IMG/VR virus record: IMGVR_UViG_3300036800_000031
Span: 1 to 64,000 of that record
DNA length: 64,000 bases
Direction: 5' to 3' (one strand)
Source: a virus
Part shown: in pieces, positions 3,206-46,300 of the stretch
Numbering within the stretch: position 1 is the stretch's first letter
Layout of the letters: every line of letters begins with the position of its first letter
Position numbers and translations under genes: made by a program
The notes under the pieces: model-generated
Seen by the model: only the letters and a program-made list of their open reading frames with translations
Databases searched by the model: none
What the model was told of the DNA's origin: nothing

Positions 3206-3426
3206 GGTGTTCCTTTCGGTTGGTTTTTTCGGGCAAGACAGCGTTCATTTTTGTCCGTCCCGTAGAAGACGAGGAGTTTCTTCTTCTCCCGGCCTTCGGG
3301 GGCGAACCGGCCGTGGCCGTCGTCCGCCGGTATGTCGGTCTCACGCTCTTCCCGGGTAGCCCCGCAGAAACAGCAAGTGCTGTCGATGTCCGGAGGAGTG
3401 CCCACGTCATGCCAGCAGTGGTTCAC
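3202..3426 (-). CDS. small Cys/His-rich hypothetical protein
   Basis: HCWH...CCFCG...HG; 4-nt overlaps with both neighbours. Confidence 0.5.
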   Translation of the reverse strand: MNHCWHDVGTPPDIDSTCCFCGATREERETDIPADDGHGRFAPEGREKKKLLVFYGTDKNERCLARKNQPKGTP

Positions 3427-4235
3427 TTCGTGGCCTTCACCGCTGCCCGTTGGGCTTCGTCCGCCGCCGCTCCACACTGCATGAGTCCCCGCTTCGCATA
3501 CCAAACGAGGGTAAACCGGTGCCCACCTTCCCGGTGGGCGAAGGGCGTCACCCCGTGCCAGGTGGCCTGGCCGTTGAAGATCGTCACGCTGGCGTGGGGG
3601 ATGTCGAGTGTGATGCCGTACTCGGGGAGGTGGAGGTGCCCGCCGTCCACCCCTTTGCGGATCGCCAACATGGCGCTCCAGGTGTCTTTCACGTTCCCGG
3701 CGTCCCGGTGGTAGGGGAGGATCGACCGGTTGTTGATGATCCCCCCGGTCCAGGGGCTTCCGGCGAAGTGCCAGTCCTGGTGGATGTTCCCGTCTACCAG
3801 TAGCTCGTGCTCGGCGGCTTGGAAGGGAGAGACTCGCTCAAACAGTTCCCAAAGGGCGGGGGTCACCGCTTCCAGGTAGCCGGTCATGGCCGGGTGCTGA
3901 CGGTGGATAGCGGCCGCGCTGGCCCCGTACCGGCGGCGGAGGGGCTTTGGCTCGGTGAACCCGAACACTCGGCTCACGGTCCGGATGCCGGAGAGTCGGC
4001 TTTGGCTGCTCGATCCGATCCCGTCGTCCCAGTCCATACGCAGCCGGAGGTACCGGCCCATGTCGCCCAGGAGTTCGTCCATGCCTTCCAGCCGTACCGA
4101 CGCCCCAAGGACTTGATCGGTGTAGGCATCCACCAAGATGACGTCCCCTTCGATCAGTTCGTCCGGGGCCGGGGCGAACGTCTTAGGAGCGGGCTTCTCG
4201 TAGTCCTCAATCCTTTTGATCGGTAGCCGGAGCAC
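3423..4235 (-). CDS. TET/JBP-family 2-oxoglutarate/Fe(II) 5-methylpyrimidine dioxygenase
   Basis: HxD (YHRDAGN), GGHLHLPEYG, distal His (WHGVTP) and 2OG-binding Arg (RFTLVWY). Confidence 0.8.
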   Translation of the reverse strand: MLRLPIKRIEDYEKPAPKTFAPAPDELIEGDVILVDAYTDQVLGASVRLEGMDELLGDMGRYLRLRMDWDDGIGSSSQSRLSGIRTVSRVFGFTEPKPLRRRYGASAAAIHRQHPAMTGYLEAVTPALWELFERVSPFQAAEHELLVDGNIHQDWHFAGSPWTGGIINNRSILPYHRDAGNVKDTWSAMLAIRKGVDGGHLHLPEYGITLDIPHASVTIFNGQATWHGVTPFAHREGGHRFTLVWYAKRGLMQCGAAADEAQRAAVKATK

Positions 4236-38622: not shown

Positions 38623-39861
38623 TCAGACCGTGGTGACGTTGCAGAACAGGTCGGGACGGAAGATCATCAGTCCGACCCGCTCTTCGCAGACCATGAGGAT
38701 CTGGTTCAGCTCGGCGTACCGCTCCTTGTAGGTCTCCACGTTGACCTGCTCGCGGTCGGCGATCATGCCGCCCAGCTGGAAGTCGCCGACCAGCGAGGTG
38801 TTCAGCGCCATCGCACGGGTCCGGTAGGTCGGAACACCCCAAACCGTCAGCGGAAGGTCGCTGAAGGGGGTTCCGGCGTCGAACGTGCCCGAGCCGCCCG
38901 CTGCCCGCTTGGTGAACATGTTCCAAGCGTTGGTCGGGTTGAGGACAACCGCCGTCGGGGTGCCGTCGTGGTTCTCCACCTGAGCGAACGCAGCCCCGAA
39001 GGTCTGAGCGTTGTCGGTGTTGACCGCACCCTGCGTCAGCACGCCGTTGGCTCCCAGGACGCCCTGGAGGTCAGGCCAGGTGCCCGAACCGTTCAGGAAC
39101 TCCCAGTCCTCCTTGAAACGGACCAGGTACGGCAGCCGCTGGTTGATGTATTGGATCACGGCCTGGGCGTCCTCGAACAGCTGCTTCGAGATCACCAACG
39201 TGGCGGCGATGACGGTCGGGTCGGCCTTGGCAGCCTGGAAGCTCAGCGTGGCGTTGGGCTTCACTCCACCCTCGGGGACGGCGGATGCCGACTCGTAGTT
39301 GGTGGGGTTGAGTTCCTGGACGTAGGGAATCTGCGCCAGGGTGGTCGTCATCTTCGGGAACAGGTCCCGGAGGAACAACCGTGCCTGCCTCGGCACCGGG
39401 GCGATGGGCTGACCGACCGGGAGCAGGTAGCCCGCTCCAGAGGGGTCAACGCCGGGGGGGCCGGACGAACCAAAGTCCTGCACCGCACGGGTGAGCATCT
39501 GGTCCAGCGTGCCCTTGCCTTCGTAGGCTTCCTCGAAGGGGGCGTTGCGGGTGCCCGAGAGCGCCCACTTCACCATGTCCTCGGAGATGAACATTTCCCC
39601 GAGCGACCGGCGCTCGATGTCATCTTCGGTGCTGCGTGCCCCGCCACCAGCCGTTGCGGCCAGCTTTGCGTTGGCCCGGCGCTCCTCCAACTCGCCCAGC
39701 GTGATCTGAGCGTCAAGCTCATTCACCTTGGCGAACATGGACTGGAGGCGAGCGGAATCCTCATCGGAGCGCACGCCTTCGGGCAGGTCGGCGAACTCAC
39801 GACGGAGGTTTGCGCACTCCTCGTAAAGCTCGTCCAGGTTCAGGGTTGCTGCTTCAGCCAT
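38623..39861 (-). CDS. HK97-fold major capsid protein
   Basis: coiled-coil delta domain, VPEGGVKP, FLNGSG, GDF and EERVGLMIFRP motifs. Confidence 0.95.
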   Translation of the reverse strand: MAEAATLNLDELYEECANLRREFADLPEGVRSDEDSARLQSMFAKVNELDAQITLGELEERRANAKLAATAGGGARSTEDDIERRSLGEMFISEDMVKWALSGTRNAPFEEAYEGKGTLDQMLTRAVQDFGSSGPPGVDPSGAGYLLPVGQPIAPVPRQARLFLRDLFPKMTTTLAQIPYVQELNPTNYESASAVPEGGVKPNATLSFQAAKADPTVIAATLVISKQLFEDAQAVIQYINQRLPYLVRFKEDWEFLNGSGTWPDLQGVLGANGVLTQGAVNTDNAQTFGAAFAQVENHDGTPTAVVLNPTNAWNMFTKRAAGGSGTFDAGTPFSDLPLTVWGVPTYRTRAMALNTSLVGDFQLGGMIADREQVNVETYKERYAELNQILMVCEERVGLMIFRPDLFCNVTTV

Positions 39862-40059: not shown

Positions 40060-40131
40060 TGGCGGAGGGGAGACTCGAACTCCCGACTTCCTGGTTATGA
40101 GCCAGACGGGCTGCCGCTGCCCTACTCCGCT
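40060..40131 (-). tRNA. tRNA-Met(CAT), initiator-like
   Basis: cloverleaf; loop CTCATAA; A1xC72 mismatch. Confidence 0.85.
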
Positions 40132-40661
40132 GTGCTCATAGAAGCTACCAGGGTGGGCCTACCGATAGCAAGGTATGGCTCCCAAGCGGGGTCTGGCCGG
40201 ATTTTCAGGAGGTGGGCAGCGACGCCCTTGGGCCGGAAAGGGGTGTTGTGAAGTTCCCATCCCAGCGAGTCCAGGGTCTGGTGGCCCTTCTTCTGATTGC
40301 ATCTCCGGCAACAAGCGGTGACGTTCTCCCAGGTGTGCTTTCCACCGAGCGCCCTGGGGACGATGTGGTCGATGGTGCCGTCCTGGCGGACGTCCTTCTG
40401 GCAGTAGCCACACCGGTACCCATCTCGGGCACAGACGTTGGAAGTGATGAGCATGATGCTCCGGTGCTTCTCGGGCATCACGACGTACTTCCGAAGGACG
40501 AGGACCGAGGGGACCATGACCTGAGTAGACGGAGAGCGGAAGACTTCACCGCTGTATTCGATGGGGTCGGCAAGCTCCTCCAGGTAAAGCTCGACAGCAT
40601 CCCGGTCGCGAATGATCGCGAGGGGTTCTCTGCTGGCGTTCAGGAGGAGCGCCCTGTTCAT
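40122..40661 (-). CDS. HNH endonuclease (McrA-like)
   Basis: RDGYRCGYC...TIDHIVPRALGG...WENVTACCRRCNQKKG. Confidence 0.9.
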   Translation of the reverse strand: MNRALLLNASREPLAIIRDRDAVELYLEELADPIEYSGEVFRSPSTQVMVPSVLVLRKYVVMPEKHRSIMLITSNVCARDGYRCGYCQKDVRQDGTIDHIVPRALGGKHTWENVTACCRRCNQKKGHQTLDSLGWELHNTPFRPKGVAAHLLKIRPDPAWEPYLAIGRPTLVASMSTAE

Positions 40662-40707
40662 CTGATTCTCGGTCTCTTTGTCATCGTCACTGCTTTCTGG
40701 TTGATTC

Positions 40708-40900: not shown

Positions 40901-40972
40901 TGGTGCCCCCGCCCGGAATCGAACCGGGATCGGCCTGATTAGAAGTCAGAGGACGGATTCCATCCCGAGGGC
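40901..40972 (-). tRNA. tRNA-Arg(TCT), atypical D arm
   Basis: loop CTTCTAA, canonical T arm, CCA encoded. Confidence 0.75.
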
Positions 40973-41357: not shown

Positions 41358-41414
41358 TTGATGCTGGGGCCGGAGGATCGTAGGCAGGCCCTTACCTCCC
41401 CTCCGGCCTTAGCG

Positions 41415-41564: not shown

Positions 41565-41608
41565 ATAAGTCAGGGCGGGATGGCAGCGAACCACCATCAC
41601 CGCCCCGG

Positions 41609-41837: not shown

Positions 41838-41910
41838 TGGTTCCCGCCGGGATCGAACCGACGCCTTCCGGGCTTCAACCGGACGCTGCTGCCAACTAAG
41901 CTAGAGAACC
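41838..41910 (-). tRNA. tRNA-Phe(GAA)
   Basis: loop TTGAAGC; 5' end overlaps the HNH stop codon. Confidence 0.85.
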
Positions 41911-42368
41911 TTGTTTTTTCTCCCCCGCCAGGTCGGCGTAAGGGCATGGCAGTTGGGGCATAGGATCGCCAGGTTCTCGATCCGGTGATCGTCCTTCACC
42001 CCGTTCATATGGTCAACCTCCAGTGGTATTGGCTGACCCATCCACTGGACCCGCTTGCACTCTTTACATTGACGCTTCCGCCCCTGCGCCAAGAGAATGG
42101 GCAGGAGGTGATAGGTCGGGTAGGTCGAGTTCTCGCAAAAGATTTCCTCCAGCGTGCGCCGACGAAGGGGCGCTCCACGGGTACCAACCCAGGACTGCCC
42201 GGTGAAGTGGCTGACATCGGCCCCAAGCCGCTTTGCATGTCTCTGGACCGAGCCGTAGTTGCCTCCGGCGAGATTAAGGCCGACTCCCCTGACTACCTGC
42301 GCCCAACTGGTCGAGGCGACGATGGCCTCCAGTAGCTCGGAATCGGTCCATGACCTCGGCTTGCCCAT
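41901..42368 (-). CDS. HNH homing endonuclease
   Basis: CKEC...W.GQPIPLEVDHMNGVKDDHRIENLAILCPNCH. Confidence 0.9.
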   Translation of the reverse strand: MGKPRSWTDSELLEAIVASTSWAQVVRGVGLNLAGGNYGSVQRHAKRLGADVSHFTGQSWVGTRGAPLRRRTLEEIFCENSTYPTYHLLPILLAQGRKRQCKECKRVQWMGQPIPLEVDHMNGVKDDHRIENLAILCPNCHALTPTWRGRKNKVL

Positions 42369-42385
42369 GCCGTAGTCTACCGTTA

Positions 42386-42416
42386 CGGACGCTCTCCCTG
42401 ACTGAGCTAGGGAACC
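42386..42416 (-). pseudogene. orphan 5' half of tRNA-Phe
   Basis: GGTTCCC-TAGCTCAGTCAGGGAGAGC-GTCCG, breaks off in the anticodon stem. Confidence 0.8.
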
Positions 42417-42417
42417 T

Positions 42418-42492
42418 TGGTGCGGCCCGGAGGAATCGAACCCCATCCGAGAGGGCATAAGCCTCTCTGCGGCCACCAGCCGCACGAGCCGC
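42418..42492 (-). tRNA. tRNA-Ile(TAT)
   Basis: loop CTTATGC, A73, CCA encoded. Confidence 0.75.
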
Positions 42493-42493
42493 A

Positions 42494-42566
42494 TGGAGCC
42501 GTCGCTGGGGGTCAAACCCAGCCGGGCGTCGTTACAAAGGACACCTCCGCATCGGGCGGCGACGGC
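42494..42566 (-). tRNA. tRNA-Thr(TGT), atypical
   Basis: loop TTTGTAA, GCC...GGC-TCCA acceptor, degenerate D arm. Confidence 0.65.
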
Positions 42567-42567
42567 A

Positions 42568-42646
42568 TGGCTGGGGAGGAGGGCCTCGAACCCCCAAGGA
42601 ATCCTGTTTCAAAGACAGGCGACTTTGCCACTTTGTCTACTCCCCA
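42568..42646 (-). tRNA. tRNA-Gln(TTG)
   Basis: loop CTTTGAA, CCA encoded. Confidence 0.9.
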
Positions 42647-42647
42647 A

Positions 42648-42721
42648 TGGAACGGACGAAGGGAATCGAACCCTCATAGTCAGATTGGAAGTCTGACGTT
42701 CTACCGTTGAACTACGTCCGC
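42648..42721 (-). tRNA. tRNA-Gly(TCC)
   Basis: loop CTTCCAA, CCA encoded. Confidence 0.9.
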
Positions 42722-42722
42722 A

Positions 42723-42824
42723 TGGTGGACAGAGAGAAGATGCTCTCGACGTATTACCGCCGTAAGTGTGACCCTCCCCTTTCCCAAGACCGTGGCATTG
42801 CCAGCTTGGGTTAGGCGTCTGCCC
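42723..42824 (-). ncRNA. 102-nt structured RNA ending ACCA with an Ala-type acceptor stem
   Basis: GGGCAGA/TCTGTCC-ACCA 7-bp stem with G3:U70; no TTC loop and no anticodon arm. Confidence 0.6.
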
Positions 42825-42835
42825 AGCGCCATCGG

Positions 42836-42907
42836 AGCGAATGACGGGGGTCGAACCCGCGACCTTCTCGTTGGCAACGAGACGCTCTACCACTGAGCCA
42901 CATTCGC
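42836..42907 (-). tRNA. tRNA-Gly(GCC)
   Basis: loop TTGCCAA. Confidence 0.9.
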
Positions 42908-42909
42908 AT

Positions 42910-42983
42910 TGGAGGCTGGACCCGGAATCGAACCGGGCTGACGCGGGTTGCAACCGCGCACCTCACCACTCGGCCATCCAGCC
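42910..42983 (-). tRNA. tRNA-Cys(GCA)
   Basis: loop TTGCAAC, U73, CCA encoded. Confidence 0.9.
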
Positions 42984-42987
42984 AAAG

Positions 42988-43058
42988 CCCCCTCGCTAGG
43001 TAACGATCCCAGTTCTTCCGATTAACAGTCGGACGTGTGGCCTTCACACCGCAAGGGG
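42988..43058 (-). tRNA. tRNA-Asn(GTT), divergent D and T loops
   Basis: loop CTGTTAA. Confidence 0.75.
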
Positions 43059-43062
43059 AAAA

Positions 43063-43479
43063 TCAAGCCACCACCTGCCGGTTGGCGCACCCACCCATTC
43101 GGTAGATCCGTTTGGCCTCCCTGCATCGGGAACACCGGCAGCCGTTTGGCATGTTGTACCGAGCACCTGTTCCGTGAGGTGGTACCGGCAACTTGTTGTG
43201 TCCACCACCAGAAGCCATATCTCCGGCTTCTTTCCCTTTCTCTATGTGGAGGGCATGGCAAAGAAGTTGACATTTCTCCAACTCGACCAAGAGGTTCTCC
43301 ATCGAGTGAGAGAGCATGTTCGCTATCCCCTCGACCTTTGTAGTCCGGTCGATGTGGTCTATTTCTAGGCGGTCTGTCGTACCGCAACGGACGCATTCAC
43401 CTCCGAGGAAGTCGATAACGAACTCTCGTCGCTTCTTCCGACGTTCGACCATGTAGGTGTTCATATCTGCCATCGGCAT
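43063..43479 (-). CDS. HNH endonuclease
   Basis: LGGECVRCG...LEIDHID...ELEKCQLLCHALH; C-terminal HGT...GCRCSRC. Confidence 0.85.
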   Translation of the reverse strand: MPMADMNTYMVERRKKRREFVIDFLGGECVRCGTTDRLEIDHIDRTTKVEGIANMLSHSMENLLVELEKCQLLCHALHIEKGKEAGDMASGGGHNKLPVPPHGTGARYNMPNGCRCSRCREAKRIYRMGGCANRQVVA

Positions 43480-43539
43480 AGGGGTTAACCGTACTACCGA
43501 CGCCGACTGAGCACCCCCGCCAAGAGGGTCCGGTCAGGA

Positions 43540-43590
43540 TGGTGCCAGGCTTTCCGCCCCACTCGATCCCCGAAGGGTTACGAACCTGGC
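43540..43590 (-). ncRNA. 51-nt mini-RNA ending ACCA
   Basis: GCCAGGTT/AGCCTGGC-ACCA stem enclosing a CCC-TTCG-GGG hairpin. Confidence 0.4.
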
Positions 43591-43900: not shown

Positions 43901-44301
43901 CTGCTCGGGCTCGAACGGTGTTCTTGCCCTTGTAGGTTTCCGTCTGAGCGTGACAGTTCGCGCAGAGCAGACGGAGATTCTCGATGCGGTGGTCATCGTT
44001 GATCCATCTCCAACGGAGCTGGCTCGCCGTTCCATTCGGTCAGGCCACACCGATCACACTTCGGCTGCTTGATCCCCTCTCGGAGAAGCCGCCGTTTCAC
44101 GTTGCCGGTGCTGTAGGTGGAGTGCTCCACTAGCACCGACTCCAGGGACCTCTGGTTGCCCCGTGGGGTCGCCCACGGCCTCGTGTGGGAGGTCGAGCAA
44201 CTGATGGAGCAGTAGGCCCGCTGGGTCTGAGACAGGAAGTTGTGACAGGAGCCATTCCCGCAAACATGCTGGCTGCGACCAGCGATCGGGAGCCAACTCA
44301 T
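43866..44301 (-). pseudogene. frameshifted HNH endonuclease
   Basis: one frame ends ...WNGEPAPLEMD and another continues NDDHRIENLRLLCANCHAQTETYKGKN; the HING segment is missing. Confidence 0.8.
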
Positions 44302-44346
44302 GACGACAGCTTACTATCCTGTTCGGGCGACCGAATGGCCGTCCAG

Positions 44347-44656: not shown

Positions 44657-44730
44657 CGGACCGGCTAGACCATCAGCGCCCTTCCGGGTTGATTACGTCA
44701 GGGACGTTGTACACCGTCCTTTTCGCCGAG

Positions 44731-44876: not shown

Positions 44877-44882
44877 AAGAAA

Positions 44883-44993
44883 AAAGCGGACCTCCCACTC
44901 GCAGGCCGGTATGCCTTCCGACCCCGTACACTCGGCTCGGGCACCACCCCTTCGCCACGTCGCAATCATGCTGGTGGTAAGACGGTCCGCTTT
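44883..44993 (-). ncRNA. 111-nt rod-shaped structured RNA
   Basis: AAAGCGGACC/GGTCCGCTTT terminal helix extended by three further helices; 3' U-tract. Confidence 0.5.
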
Positions 44994-45048
44994 CGGGACA
45001 GCCGCCCTGTGGCGGCTTTTCATCGCAGGATTGCCTGCGCATCCCGAG

Positions 45049-45936: not shown

Positions 45937-45942
45937 AAAGCT

Positions 45943-46044
45943 AGGATGCGGGCTGCCATTACACCACCGCAGCCCCCGAGGGGGTGAAAGTTCCCTTGCG
46001 GTTGCTCTCTTACGCGACGTGGAATCGAACCACGACCTCATCCT
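45943..46044 (-). ncRNA. circularly permuted tRNA-like RNA (YrlA/Y-RNA-like)
   Basis: T arm CGTGG-TTCGATT-CCACG lies 5' of the D-arm sequence TGGTGTAATGGCAGC; ends closed by AGGATG/CATCCT. Confidence 0.65.
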
Positions 46045-46046
46045 CG

Positions 46047-46125: not shown

Positions 46126-46265
46126 ATGCGGGACGGTCGGTACCCGGGCAACTGCCCGGCCCGTCCCATTTGGACTATTCAGCGTGACGGGTTTTGTTCG
46201 GTACCGTCACTATCGCCTGCTACCTCCCTCACTCGCCATGACGGACGAGGTACTGAGGTTTGAAG

Positions 46266-46297
46266 CATGGGTGGAGGGAGTCGAACCCCCCTTCACC
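46266..46297 (-). pseudogene. orphan 3' remnant of the resident tRNA-Trp
   Basis: T arm plus CACCCAT-G, exactly complementary to ATGGGTG at 46756-46762. Confidence 0.8.
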
Positions 46298-46300
46298 TCG

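What the first reader, a model, noticed from the sequence alone, without database searches (positions are those of the whole stretch)
42723..42824. 102-nt CCA-ended RNA with alanine identity but no tRNA body
Seen: spaced like a tRNA gene between two Gly tRNAs, with a 7-bp GGGCAGA/TCTGTCC stem, A73 and CCA. The interior has a CCCAAG/CTTGGG hairpin and small stems but no TTCG T loop or anticodon arm. Known: G3:U70 with A73 is sufficient for AlaRS charging, as in tmRNA and minihelices. Inference: an alanylatable non-decoding RNA, possibly a decoy for tRNA-targeting defences, a tmRNA/SmpB competitor or an aminoacyl donor.
Basis: partly seen in the sequence, partly recalled or inferred. Interest (0 to 1): 0.72.

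Follow-up and report, generated by a model that had tools for sequence, protein, structure and literature searches.

The report
Alanine-type tRNA-like RNA without anticodon
Inside a soil phage's row of tRNA genes lies a 102-base stretch that ends like an alanine tRNA but has no tRNA body; it may be a chargeable, non-decoding RNA, but it has no known relatives and could be a leftover.

Summary
On the minus strand, 42824-42723 has a perfect 7-bp stem (G1-C72, G2-C71, G3.U70), then A73 and CCA. It ends 1 nt before tRNA-Gly(UCC). ARAGORN (also relaxed, intron and mitochondrial modes) and Rfam (E up to 10) find no tRNA, tmRNA or other family there.

G3.U70 is otherwise found only in tRNA-Ala here (0 of 38 other tRNAs). 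In relative L005 it occurs only in tRNA-Ala and tmRNA.

Against a selected function:
- The element has no homolog in any collection I could search.
- The nearest relative's contig bridges this interval with 297 unalignable letters in place of 407.
- The 'CA' of the CCA fits a general C-A-U leader consensus before tRNA genes.
- Closing stems are common in these spacers.

For it:
- Only 1 of 3505 background CCA sites carries the full feature set.
- L005 has a second alanine-type closed element.
- Related phages carry clear CCA-ended minihelices and anticodon-less tRNA-like RNAs.

Best reading (about 0.4): a co-transcribed RNA that is processed like a tRNA, can be charged with alanine, and does not decode. 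The main rival is an unselected relic or structured spacer. The scan had noted this same stretch once before, in another window of the same genome.

The parts
42723..42824 (-). The whole element (E1): 102 nt, closed by an acceptor-like stem, with an encoded CCA
   Evidence: Sequence read. Fold. Single copy in the 89,253-bp genome.
42818..42824 (-). 5' strand of the acceptor-like stem (element nt 1-7, GGGCAGA)
   Evidence: Pair probabilities 0.75-1.0.
42727..42733 (-). 3' strand of the acceptor-like stem (nt 92-98, TCTGTCC). The T at nt 96 pairs with G3 to give G3.U70.
42723..42726 (-). A73 (42726) and the encoded CCA (42725-42723)
   Evidence: One base (42722) separates the CCA from tRNA-Gly(TCC).
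42783..42810 (-). Interior hairpin 1 (nt 15-42, CCCAAG...CTTGGG), framed by CCT/AGG (nt 10-12 and 45-47)
   Evidence: MFE and centroid. Pair probabilities 0.98-1.0.
42747..42762 (-). Interior hairpin 2 (nt 63-78): 5-bp stem with a 6-nt loop, not an anticodon-type 7-nt loop
   Evidence: Pair probabilities 0.74-1.0.
42734..42747 (-). Alternative T-arm-like hairpin (nt 78-91): 5 bp with a 4-nt loop, stacking directly on the acceptor stem
   Evidence: The constrained fold is -37.9 against an MFE of -38.8 kcal/mol. Pair probabilities are only 0.13-0.26.
42825..42833 (-). Short leader between tRNA-Gly(GCC) and the element
   Evidence: In the precursor MFE, part of it pairs with the CCA-T tail.
42834..42907 (-). 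Upstream tRNA-Gly(GCC), without an encoded CCA
   Evidence: ARAGORN. Rfam 71.9 bits. Gene ends.
42648..42721 (-). Downstream tRNA-Gly(TCC). RNase P cleavage at its 5' end would create the element's 3' end (inferred).
   Evidence: ARAGORN. Rfam 71.6 bits.

Best explanation
E1 is a non-decoding, tRNA-like RNA gene embedded in the phage's polycistronic tRNA array. It is a roughly 102-nt multi-hairpin RNA whose ends form an alanine-type acceptor arm (G1-C72, G2-C71, G3.U70, A73) with a genome-encoded CCA.

How it would work (all steps inferred):
1. It is transcribed with its neighbours. No promoter or terminator separates them.
2. RNase P cleavage at the 5' end of tRNA-Gly(UCC), 1 nt downstream, leaves ...ACCA-U. 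One base is then trimmed.
3. The 5' end is made by RNase P acting on the acceptor helix with its RCCA tail, or by trimming of the roughly 10-nt remainder of the tRNA-Gly(GCC) trailer.
4. The closed stem and the CCA protect the RNA.
5. Host AlaRS reads only the acceptor helix, so it can alanylate the RNA, as it does tmRNA and minihelices.
6. The RNA has no anticodon arm and no T/D-loop elbow, so it cannot decode. Whatever it does must go through factors that read the acceptor end only.

Shown directly: the sequence features, the position, the absence of any tRNA or tmRNA body, and the exclusivity of G3.U70 in this genome. Transcription, processing, charging and any role are inferred.
For: Acceptor arm and position:
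- The stem is 7 of 7 paired, followed by A73, CCA and one base before the next tRNA. At least 16 recognised tRNAs of this array end in CCA and most are followed after 1 nt by the next tRNA. The two tRNAs that ARAGORN missed do the same.
- G3.U70 occurs in 0 of 38 non-Ala tRNAs of the genome and in 0 of 34 non-Ala tRNAs of relative L005. It occurs in both tRNA-Ala genes and in L005's tmRNA. That tmRNA shares the first four pairs (GGGC/GTCC) and A73 with E1.
- The identity set listed for bacterial tRNA-Ala is A73, G2-C71, G3.U70, G4-C69 and G20 (PMC9976931, passage). Three of the four acceptor items are met.

Chance:
- Only 1 of 3505 background CCA sites has the closure plus A73 plus G3.U70.
- Across 80 spacers of four phage arrays, 2 strict alanine-type closures were found (E1 and L005 3358-3466). 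Shuffles gave a mean of 0.28, and 13 of 300 shuffles reached 2.

Fold:
- E1: z = -2.28. L005 3358-3466: z = -2.49, with a cloverleaf-like four-arm fold but no tRNA match in Rfam.
- In both, the helices are intact while the conserved tRNA loops are absent. That is not the pattern of neutral decay (inference).

Class context:
- Related phages carry clear CCA-ended non-decoding RNAs placed 0-1 nt before tRNAs.
- These include two 11-bp minihelices with an identical loop and ACCA tail. Four of their 11 pairs are changed on both sides and all cells are paired.
- CCA-ended closures abutting a tRNA or another element: 20 hits on the sense strand against 2 on the antisense strand.

Transcription unit: no promoter-like site, and the one terminator-like hit lies inside tRNA-Gln, not beside E1.
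Against: - No homolog was found. The 31-mer, the 28-mer and the junction pattern each gave 0 matches in viral or genome collections. The end-motif pattern gave 23 loci and all 23 have unrelated interiors. BLAST against relative L005's record found nothing at E up to 10. A covariance model of E1 found only E1 itself, plus one 17.5-bit hit that lies inside a coding frame.
- Contigs of the nearest relative (capsid 86% identical) join 42501 to 42909 with 297 letters where this phage has 407, in 4 of 4 runs. Those letters do not align at 80% likeness. The 110-nt difference equals the element plus its spacers. This is compatible with absence but does not prove it.
- L005 has an unrelated, unstructured 162-nt spacer at the syntenic place (z = +0.37).
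- C at -3 (17 of 20), A at -2 (12 of 20) and T at -1 (11 of 20) form a general leader consensus before tRNAs here. Only the first C of the CCA is therefore informative.
- Many spacers are closed hairpins with 4-8-nt 3' tails. A stem that stops 5 nt before the next tRNA is not rare.
- There is no T loop. The T-arm-like hairpin has pair probability of only 0.13-0.26. Recognition by RNase P, the CCA enzyme and EF-Tu would be minihelix-grade at best.
- C4-G69 replaces G4-C69.
- In the precursor fold the leader pairs with the CCA-T tail. A paper whose abstract I saw only in a search listing (PMC9433436) reports that such pairing inhibits RNase P.
- The second element's alanine-type stem (E2) is 6 of 7 paired, and its 5' strand is heavily changed in the relative while the 3' strand is not. 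The 'two RNAs, same identity' argument is weak.
- There are no expression data.
Confidence: 0.4

Rival explanations
1. Unselected relic. E1 is what remains of an alanine-identity gene (a second tRNA-Ala, or a tmRNA) whose body was replaced or collapsed during the recombination traffic of this array. It is still transcribed and may even be trimmed and charged, but it has no role of its own.
For: - The array is visibly remodelled. HNH endonuclease ORFs lie in four spacers, with an orphan tRNA 5' half beside at least one (earlier notes).
- A 51-nt CCA-ended element (43540-43590) has the same GCCAGG/CCTGGC-A-CCA ends as a fuller tRNA-like element at genome 72029-72096, but has lost its T arm. Relics that keep their ends do exist here.
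- The element is absent or unalignable in both relatives examined.
- L005's tmRNA shares the outer four pairs and A73 with E1, and this phage lacks a tmRNA.
Against: - Nothing of the supposed parent is left. Local alignment to L005's tmRNA scores 16.0 against a shuffle mean of 16.3, and 316 of 500 shuffles score as high.
- Rfam finds no tRNA or tmRNA match at E up to 10.
- E1 has no paralog in the genome.
- A decaying gene should lose stem pairs as fast as loops. Here the stem is 7 of 7 paired and the interior folds better than 197 of 200 shuffles.
Confidence: 0.36
2. Ordinary structured inter-tRNA spacer. The hairpins merely insulate neighbouring tRNAs in the precursor, and the acceptor-like end with alanine marks is coincidence.
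For: - Spacers of this array are commonly strong closed hairpins, for example 41358-41413, 41565-41606 and 44877-45047. Their 3' tails are 1-8 nt long.
- The leader consensus C-A-T supplies two of the three CCA bases.
- Seven-bp closures before a CCA occur about once per kb per strand: 66 and 72 in 64 kb.
- A looser scan for alanine-type closures gave about one chance-looking hit per array.
Against: - The full feature set occurs at 1 of 3505 background CCA sites.
- There were 2 strict alanine-type closures in 80 spacers, against 0.28 expected.
- C at -4 is found in only 2 of the 16 spacers that are not tRNA-like.
Confidence: 0.14
3. An unrecognised decoding tRNA of unusual shape, for example one with an insertion or intron, or with an expanded or contracted anticodon loop.
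For: ARAGORN and Rfam do miss real, odd tRNAs in this array. Examples are 40901-40972 (anticodon TCT) and 42494-42566 (anticodon TGT), which have reduced D arms.
Against: - Those missed tRNAs keep a canonical T arm and a 7-nt anticodon loop. E1 has neither.
- ARAGORN's intron, mitochondrial and lowered-threshold modes give nothing that matches its ends.
- All 20 amino acids are already served by the array.
Confidence: 0.04
4. A small protein-coding gene: the ATG at 42832 opens a 43-codon frame on the minus strand.
For: An open frame crosses the element. One search lists it as part of the 58-aa ORF 42701-42877.
Against: - All six ORFs that cross the element run into at least one flanking tRNA gene.
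- The frame starts within or right after tRNA-Gly(GCC), with no room for a ribosome-binding site, and it stops inside tRNA-Gly(TCC).
Confidence: 0.02

Closest known systems
tmRNA (SsrA), tRNA-like domain
   Same: Both are non-decoding RNAs whose 5' and 3' ends form an acceptor stem with G3.U70 and A73 and are charged by AlaRS. The tmRNA of the related phage L005 has the same first four pairs and discriminator.
   Different: - E1 is 102 nt against about 377 nt.
- E1 has no T arm, no pseudoknots and no tag reading frame.
- There is no match to RF00023 over cut-off in the genome and no ARAGORN tmRNA call.
- There is no sequence similarity to L005's tmRNA.
- The phage has no SmpB.
Phage T4 RNAC and RNAD (species 1 and 2 RNAs)
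   Same: Both are small stable RNAs transcribed from a phage tRNA gene region with still unknown roles (PMC3014915 passage; PMC9697503 passages). That they are processed with the tRNA precursors is my recollection and comes from no call.
   Different: - They were not compared by sequence, because no T4 record or model was fetched.
- No alanine identity is known to me for them.
- T4 infects E. coli, whereas this is a 62% G+C soil phage.
Synthetic tRNA-Ala minihelices and microhelices
   Same: An acceptor helix with G3.U70 and A73-CCA is enough for AlaRS. [quoted passage not shown] The kinetic details are recalled.
   Different: - E1 is natural.
- It carries a 70-nt multi-hairpin insert between the acceptor strand and the T-arm-like hairpin.
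- It has C4-G69.
CCA-ended minihelices and anticodon-less tRNA-like RNAs of related phages
   Same: They have an encoded N-CCA and a closing acceptor-like stem, and they sit 0-1 nt before a tRNA gene or another such element.
   Different: - Those lie next to a PTH2-like ORF and an amber-suppressor tRNA.
- Most keep a T arm or T-loop-like hairpin.
- None has G3.U70.
- They share no sequence similarity with E1, and the models R1 and R2 do not cross-hit.
Other RNase P-processed or aminoacylatable tRNA mimics (mascRNA RF01684, YrlA RF02553, plant-virus tRNA-like 3' ends)
   Same: All are tRNA-like ends used outside decoding. mascRNA and YrlA are Rfam models that gave weak matches to other odd tRNAs of this phage.
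   Different: Neither model matches E1 at E up to 10. All of these mimic the elbow (T and D loops), which E1 lacks. I know the plant-virus examples only from a listing abstract (PMC5723415) and from recollection.

Membership tests
tRNA (RF00005) | Cloverleaf with D arm, 7-nt anticodon loop and T arm with a T-loop motif | tested here: not met
   No ARAGORN call. No Rfam match at gathering level or at E up to 10. Relaxed, intron and mitochondrial ARAGORN modes give nothing with the element's ends.
tRNA (RF00005) | 7-bp acceptor stem, discriminator and 3' CCA | tested here: met
   7 of 7 pairs, A73 and an encoded CCA.
tmRNA (RF00023) | tRNA-like domain with T arm, pseudoknots and a tag reading frame | tested here: not met
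   0 matches over cut-off in the whole genome. No ARAGORN tmRNA. No similarity to L005's tmRNA.
tmRNA (RF00023) | A partner SmpB is available | tested here: not met
   No SmpB in the phage genome. The host is unknown, so a host SmpB cannot be checked.
Alanine acceptor identity (bacterial AlaRS substrates) | G3.U70 | tested here: met
   Otherwise found only in tRNA-Ala among 39 tRNAs of the genome.
Alanine acceptor identity (bacterial AlaRS substrates) | A73 and G2-C71 | tested here: met
   Identity set taken from PMC9976931 (passage).
Alanine acceptor identity (bacterial AlaRS substrates) | G4-C69 (and G20) | tested here: not met
   C4-G69 is present instead, as in L005's tmRNA. There is no D loop, so G20 does not apply.
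Alanine acceptor identity (bacterial AlaRS substrates) | Actual charging with alanine | not testable with these tools
   Needs an in vitro AlaRS assay or a charging-sensitive sequencing method.
RNase P minihelix-type substrate | About 12 bp of coaxial acceptor plus T stem with a 3' RCCA | tested here: inconclusive
   ACCA is present. A 7+5-bp stack is possible at -37.9 against an MFE of -38.8 kcal/mol, but its pair probability is only 0.13-0.26.
Phage tRNA-cluster small stable RNAs (T4 RNAC/RNAD kind) | A discrete stable transcript from within a phage tRNA cluster | not testable with these tools
   No RNA run holds this phage. Location within the cluster is met.
Protein-coding gene | An ORF with its own start context that does not overlap structural RNA genes | tested here: not met
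   All 6 ORFs crossing the element run into flanking tRNA genes.

The most novel reading that the evidence does not exclude
Phage tRNA arrays encode a so far undescribed class of non-decoding, CCA-ended acceptor-arm mimics. Its members would be bare minihelices, anticodon-less tRNA-like RNAs and larger alanine-type elements such as E1 and L005 3358-3466. They would be matured by the tRNA-processing machinery. Those with G3.U70 would be alanylated. They would act on factors that read only the acceptor end, for instance as sponges for host defences that cut, extend, pyrophosphorylate or sense tRNA CCA tails, or as aminoacyl carriers.
Probability: 0.15. Interest if true: 0.85.

Novelty: new variant of a known kind. 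Interest (0 to 1): 0.5.

Why it matters
AlaRS is the one synthetase that needs nothing but the acceptor helix. Alanine identity is therefore the obvious way for a genome to make a chargeable RNA that never decodes, and tmRNA is the only natural bacterial example in general use.

A second, much smaller kind carried by phages would add a new player to the tRNA-centred conflict between phages and bacteria. Recent work describes defences aimed at acceptor stems and CCA tails:
- MenT (PMC10435456, listing only)
- toxSAS FaRel2 (PMC11559606, listing only)
- Cas12a3 with Adt1 (abstract read)

An acceptor-arm mimic is a testable counter-measure to such systems. Even if E1 itself proves to be a relic, the CCA-ended minihelices found beside suppressor tRNAs in related phages deserve a study of their own.

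Tried and rejected
Relatives by DNA
- A distant blastn of 42400-43100 against phage records gave 73 records. All matched tRNA-sized pieces and 0 covered 80% of the query.
- Exact and gapped patterns of the element gave nothing useful in viral contigs, metagenome contigs (using the second element's 3' end), viral contigs again and genome contigs. The 23 loci were read by eye. All have unrelated interiors. I did not scan them for tRNAs.

Relatives by protein
- The capsid gave 5 IMG/VR loci. Only L005 carries the array. L006-L008 have no tRNA and L009 has one.
- Metagenome and genome scans with the capsid alignment found no relative.
- The large protein search listed closer relatives that exist only in Logan assemblies, at 83-87% identity.

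Expression
- No RNA holder is listed for this phage, so nothing can be said about expression.
- In read laying, the bin 42758-42831 had no cover in 4 of 4 runs. I use only the bridging joint as evidence.

Origin
- I considered tmRNA-relic and paralog origins. Local alignments of E1 to L005's tmRNA, to E2 and to two L005 spacers were all within shuffle expectation.
- A 13-nt match at genome 82685-82697 lies at the end of a coding frame.

Models
- A covariance model built from E1 alone found only E1 and one false hit in a coding frame.
- An alignment of E1 with L005 3358-3466 shares only the stem that both were selected for, so it is not independent evidence.

Partners
- Ten neighbouring ORFs are glycosyltransferases, an epimerase, a methyltransferase, an HNH endonuclease or unknowns.
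- The genome has no SmpB, no CCA-adding-enzyme head domain and no AlaRS/AlaX SAD domain.

Survey
- Microbacterium phage Zooman gave no E1-like element.

Literature
- Six searches found no paper in the held library describing CCA-ended anticodon-less RNAs or minihelices in phage tRNA arrays.
The tRNA tables of PMC5852040 and of other phage genome papers could bear on that claim.
Full report
WHAT THE WINDOW IS

The window is the first 64 kb of an 89,253-bp IMG/VR virus record with direct terminal repeats, rated 100% complete. Its G+C content is about 62%. All genes around the finding lie on the minus strand. ARAGORN finds 35 tRNA genes. Thirty-four of them lie in one array at 40.0-46.4 kb, between the major capsid gene (38623-39861, Pfam Phage_capsid) and a group of sugar-modifying genes. 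No cultured phage is close: 73 records matched, but only tRNA-sized pieces.

THE OBSERVATION

The minus strand of 42824-42723 starts GGGCAGA and ends TCTGTCC-A-CCA. The stem is 7 of 7 paired and has a single wobble, G3.U70. A73 and CCA follow. One base later tRNA-Gly(TCC) begins. tRNA-Gly(GCC) ends 9-11 nt upstream.

The interior has a CCCAAG/CTTGGG hairpin and a second 5-bp hairpin with a 6-nt loop. It has no T-loop motif.

Neither ARAGORN nor Rfam calls anything here, at gathering scores or at E up to 10. ARAGORN with lowered thresholds, intron mode or mitochondrial modes also calls nothing that shares the element's ends.

IS IT MORE THAN CHANCE?

The fold is moderately better than random: -38.8 kcal/mol, z = -2.28, with 3 of 200 shuffles as good. 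The acceptor pairs have probability 0.99-1.0 for six pairs and 0.75 for the seventh. Three cautions emerged.

1. A 7-bp closure in front of N-CCA is common. There are 66 and 72 on the two strands of the window, and 2.6% of background CCA sites have one.
2. tRNA genes here are preceded by a leader consensus. Among 20 spacers, C is at -3 in 17, A at -2 in 12 and T at -1 in 11. L005 and a third phage show A at -2 and T at -1 as well. Two of the three CCA bases are therefore expected anyway. Only the C at -4 is unusual: 6 of 20 spacers have it, and four of those are E1, E2 and two missed tRNAs.
3. Spacers of this array are often closed hairpins with short 3' tails.

What remains unusual is the complete set. 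Only 1 of 3505 background CCA sites combines the closure with A73 and G3.U70.

G3.U70 is also strictly reserved in these genomes. It is absent from 38 of 38 non-Ala tRNAs here and from 34 of 34 in L005. It is present in both tRNA-Ala genes and in L005's tmRNA. I judge the feature set unlikely to be pure coincidence, at roughly the 1% level. The caveat is that the identity reading is post hoc.

RELATIVES

The capsid finds five IMG/VR relatives. Only L005 (65% identity) carries the array, and it carries it in the same gene order, with a tmRNA and two tRNA(CUA) genes in addition. Between its two Gly tRNAs L005 has 162 nt with no similarity to E1 and no unusual fold.

A closer relative (capsid 86%) is present in four soil runs of another study. 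Its contigs align to the tRNAs on both sides. They join 42501 to 42909 with 297 letters in place of 407. Those letters do not align at 80% likeness. The 110-nt deficit equals E1 plus its spacers, which is suggestive of absence but not proof. The tRNA-Asn next door also failed to align.

Pattern scans and a covariance model of E1 found nothing else. E1 is thus an orphan, and no covariation test was possible.

WHAT IT IS NOT

- It is not a decayed ordinary tRNA-Ala as far as any model can see.
- It is not a tmRNA, and the phage has no SmpB.
- It is not a coding gene. Every ORF across it runs into a flanking tRNA.
- It has no paralog in the genome.

CONTEXT FOUND ON THE WAY

1. ARAGORN and Rfam miss real but odd tRNAs in this array. 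Examples are 40901-40972 (anticodon TCT) and 42494-42566 (anticodon TGT). They have reduced D arms, but they keep T arms and anticodon loops.

2. HNH endonuclease ORFs and orphan tRNA halves show that the array is being remodelled (earlier notes).

3. Other CCA-ended, stem-closed, non-tRNA elements exist in this genome:
   - E3 at 43540-43590.
   - E4 at genome 72029-72096, which keeps a T arm but has a tetraloop hairpin where the anticodon arm should be. Rfam does not call E4.

4. Upstream of the amber-suppressor tRNA and beside a weakly PTH2-like ORF, related phages carry unmistakable members of this kind:
   - a 60-nt RNA with D and T arms but no anticodon arm;
   - a 54-nt acceptor-hairpin-T-arm RNA;
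   - two 34-nt minihelices with the same 8-nt loop and ACCA tail, in which 4 of 11 pairs differ on both sides and all cells are paired.
   These lie 0-1 nt from each other and from the tRNA. In one of these phages none of the 26 array tRNAs listed ends in CCA, so the CCA of those small RNAs is not an inherited tRNA feature. A count of CCA-ended closures that abut a tRNA or another element gave 20 on the sense strand and 2 on the antisense strand.

5. L005 has, right after its tRNA-Ala, a 109-nt element (3358-3466). It is closed by GGGGTAG/CTACTCC plus A73, again with G3.U70 as the only wobble. Its fold is cloverleaf-like with four arms, z = -2.49, and it has no Rfam tRNA match. With E1 this makes 2 strict alanine-type closures in 80 spacers of four arrays. 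Shuffles gave a mean of 0.28, and 13 of 300 reached 2.

A point against: E2's alanine-type stem is only 6 of 7 paired. In the relative its 5' strand carries many substitutions and insertions, while none of the 12 listed differences of that aligned piece falls in its 3' 32 nt. Five of the piece's 17 differences are not listed. E2 therefore does not back up E1's identity reading.

MECHANISM

No promoter-like site was found around E1, and the only terminator-like hit lies inside tRNA-Gln. Co-transcription with the tRNAs is therefore the default (inference).

RNase P cleavage of tRNA-Gly(UCC) would leave ...ACCA-U, as for the tRNA-CCA-N-tRNA pairs of this array (inference). The 5' end needs RNase P acting on a minihelix-grade substrate, or else exonucleolytic trimming. 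A 7+5-bp coaxial stack is energetically possible but is not the favoured fold. In the precursor the leader can pair with the CCA tail, which may slow RNase P.

Once made, the RNA offers AlaRS three of the four acceptor-stem determinants listed for bacteria (PMC9976931 passage). The missing one, G4-C69, is also missing in L005's tmRNA. The RNA cannot decode.

I commit to 'processed, alanylatable, non-decoding acceptor-arm RNA' at about 0.4. What it does beyond that is open. A role as a mimic for factors that read only the acceptor end is the most attractive idea, given described defences against CCA tails and acceptor stems (abstract read; listings). I give it about 0.15.

COMPARISON WITH KNOWN THINGS AND NOVELTY

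Functionally, E1 resembles the tRNA-like domain of tmRNA and the synthetic alanine minihelices. By location, it resembles the small RNAs RNAC and RNAD of the T4 tRNA region, whose roles are still unknown. It fails the membership tests for tRNA and tmRNA.

Six literature searches found no description of such elements in phage arrays. I rate it a new variant of a known kind, with interest 0.5. The reasons are:
- the features are real and specific;
- the element is a singleton without conservation or expression data;
- part of the signal has an ordinary explanation.

The wider class of CCA-ended minihelices is, in my view, the stronger lead.

Noticed in passing
L041 3299-3421 (a 164-kb IMG/VR phage, G003); L042 3273-3332 (G002); L005 2398-2456 and 2536-2569; G000 genome 72029-72096: CCA-ended minihelices and anticodon-less tRNA-like RNAs lie in tandem, 0-1 nt apart. 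They sit between a weakly PTH2-like ORF and an amber-suppressor tRNA(CUA). Two 34-nt minihelices share the loop and the ACCA tail, and 4 of their 11 stem pairs are changed on both sides. No description was found in six literature searches.
   Followed up: partly
L005 3358-3466: A 109-nt element directly after tRNA-Ala. It has a 7-bp stem with G3.U70 as the only wobble, A73, no encoded CCA, and a four-arm cloverleaf-like fold (z = -2.49). Rfam gives no tRNA match.
   Followed up: partly
Its alanine-type stem is 6 of 7 paired and competes with a 10-bp hairpin that includes 5 upstream bases. In the nearest relative both of its ends align and the middle 67 nt are replaced by 65 letters. The 5' strand carries many changes.
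   Followed up: partly
window 43540-43590 (-): A 51-nt CCA-ended hairpin RNA. Its GCCAGG/CCTGGC-A-CCA ends match the 68-nt element at genome 72029-72096, but it has no T arm. It looks like a reduced copy. An orphan tRNA 5' half and an HNH ORF follow it.
   Followed up: partly
window 40901-40972, 42494-42566 and about 44657-44730 (-): tRNA genes missed by ARAGORN and Rfam, with anticodons TCT, TGT and probably CCG. They have reduced D arms containing a GATGGAAT-like motif and normal T arms. L005 has the CCG one too.
   Followed up: partly
window 40.0-46.4 kb; L005 2200-8950; L038: A leader consensus lies directly before tRNA 5' ends. It is C-A-T in this phage and L005, and C-A-A-T in the 164-kb phage. 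It may be a processing signal. It inflates the apparent number of encoded CCA ends.
   Followed up: partly
window 40132-40707, 41911-42417, 43059-43539 and 43901-44345 (-): HNH endonuclease-like ORFs sit inside the tRNA array. The one at 41911-42417 is preceded by an orphan tRNA 5' half (HNH domains confirmed for 40122-40661). The relative's contigs skip 536 nt at 41864-42401, which means they lack that cassette.
   Followed up: partly
L005 3988-4364 and 2458-2645; G000 genome 72098-72241: L005 and the 164-kb phage encode a tmRNA inside their arrays. This phage has none and no SmpB. All carry tRNA(CUA) genes. The first one in G000 is noncanonical and scores best against the mascRNA model.
   Followed up: no
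window 45937-46045 and 46129-46299 (-): T-arm-like sequences lie just outside the ARAGORN calls for tRNA-Tyr and tRNA-Trp, so those calls look mis-bounded or interrupted. Earlier notes read these as a permuted tRNA and an HNH-split tRNA-Trp.
   Followed up: no
L033 (Microbacterium phage Zooman, OK040793.1): Its large tRNA region is interleaved with genes annotated as Ro-like RNA-binding protein, RtcB-like ligase, peptidyl-tRNA hydrolase, ADP-ribosyltransferase and HNH endonuclease. No E1-like element was found there.
   Followed up: partly
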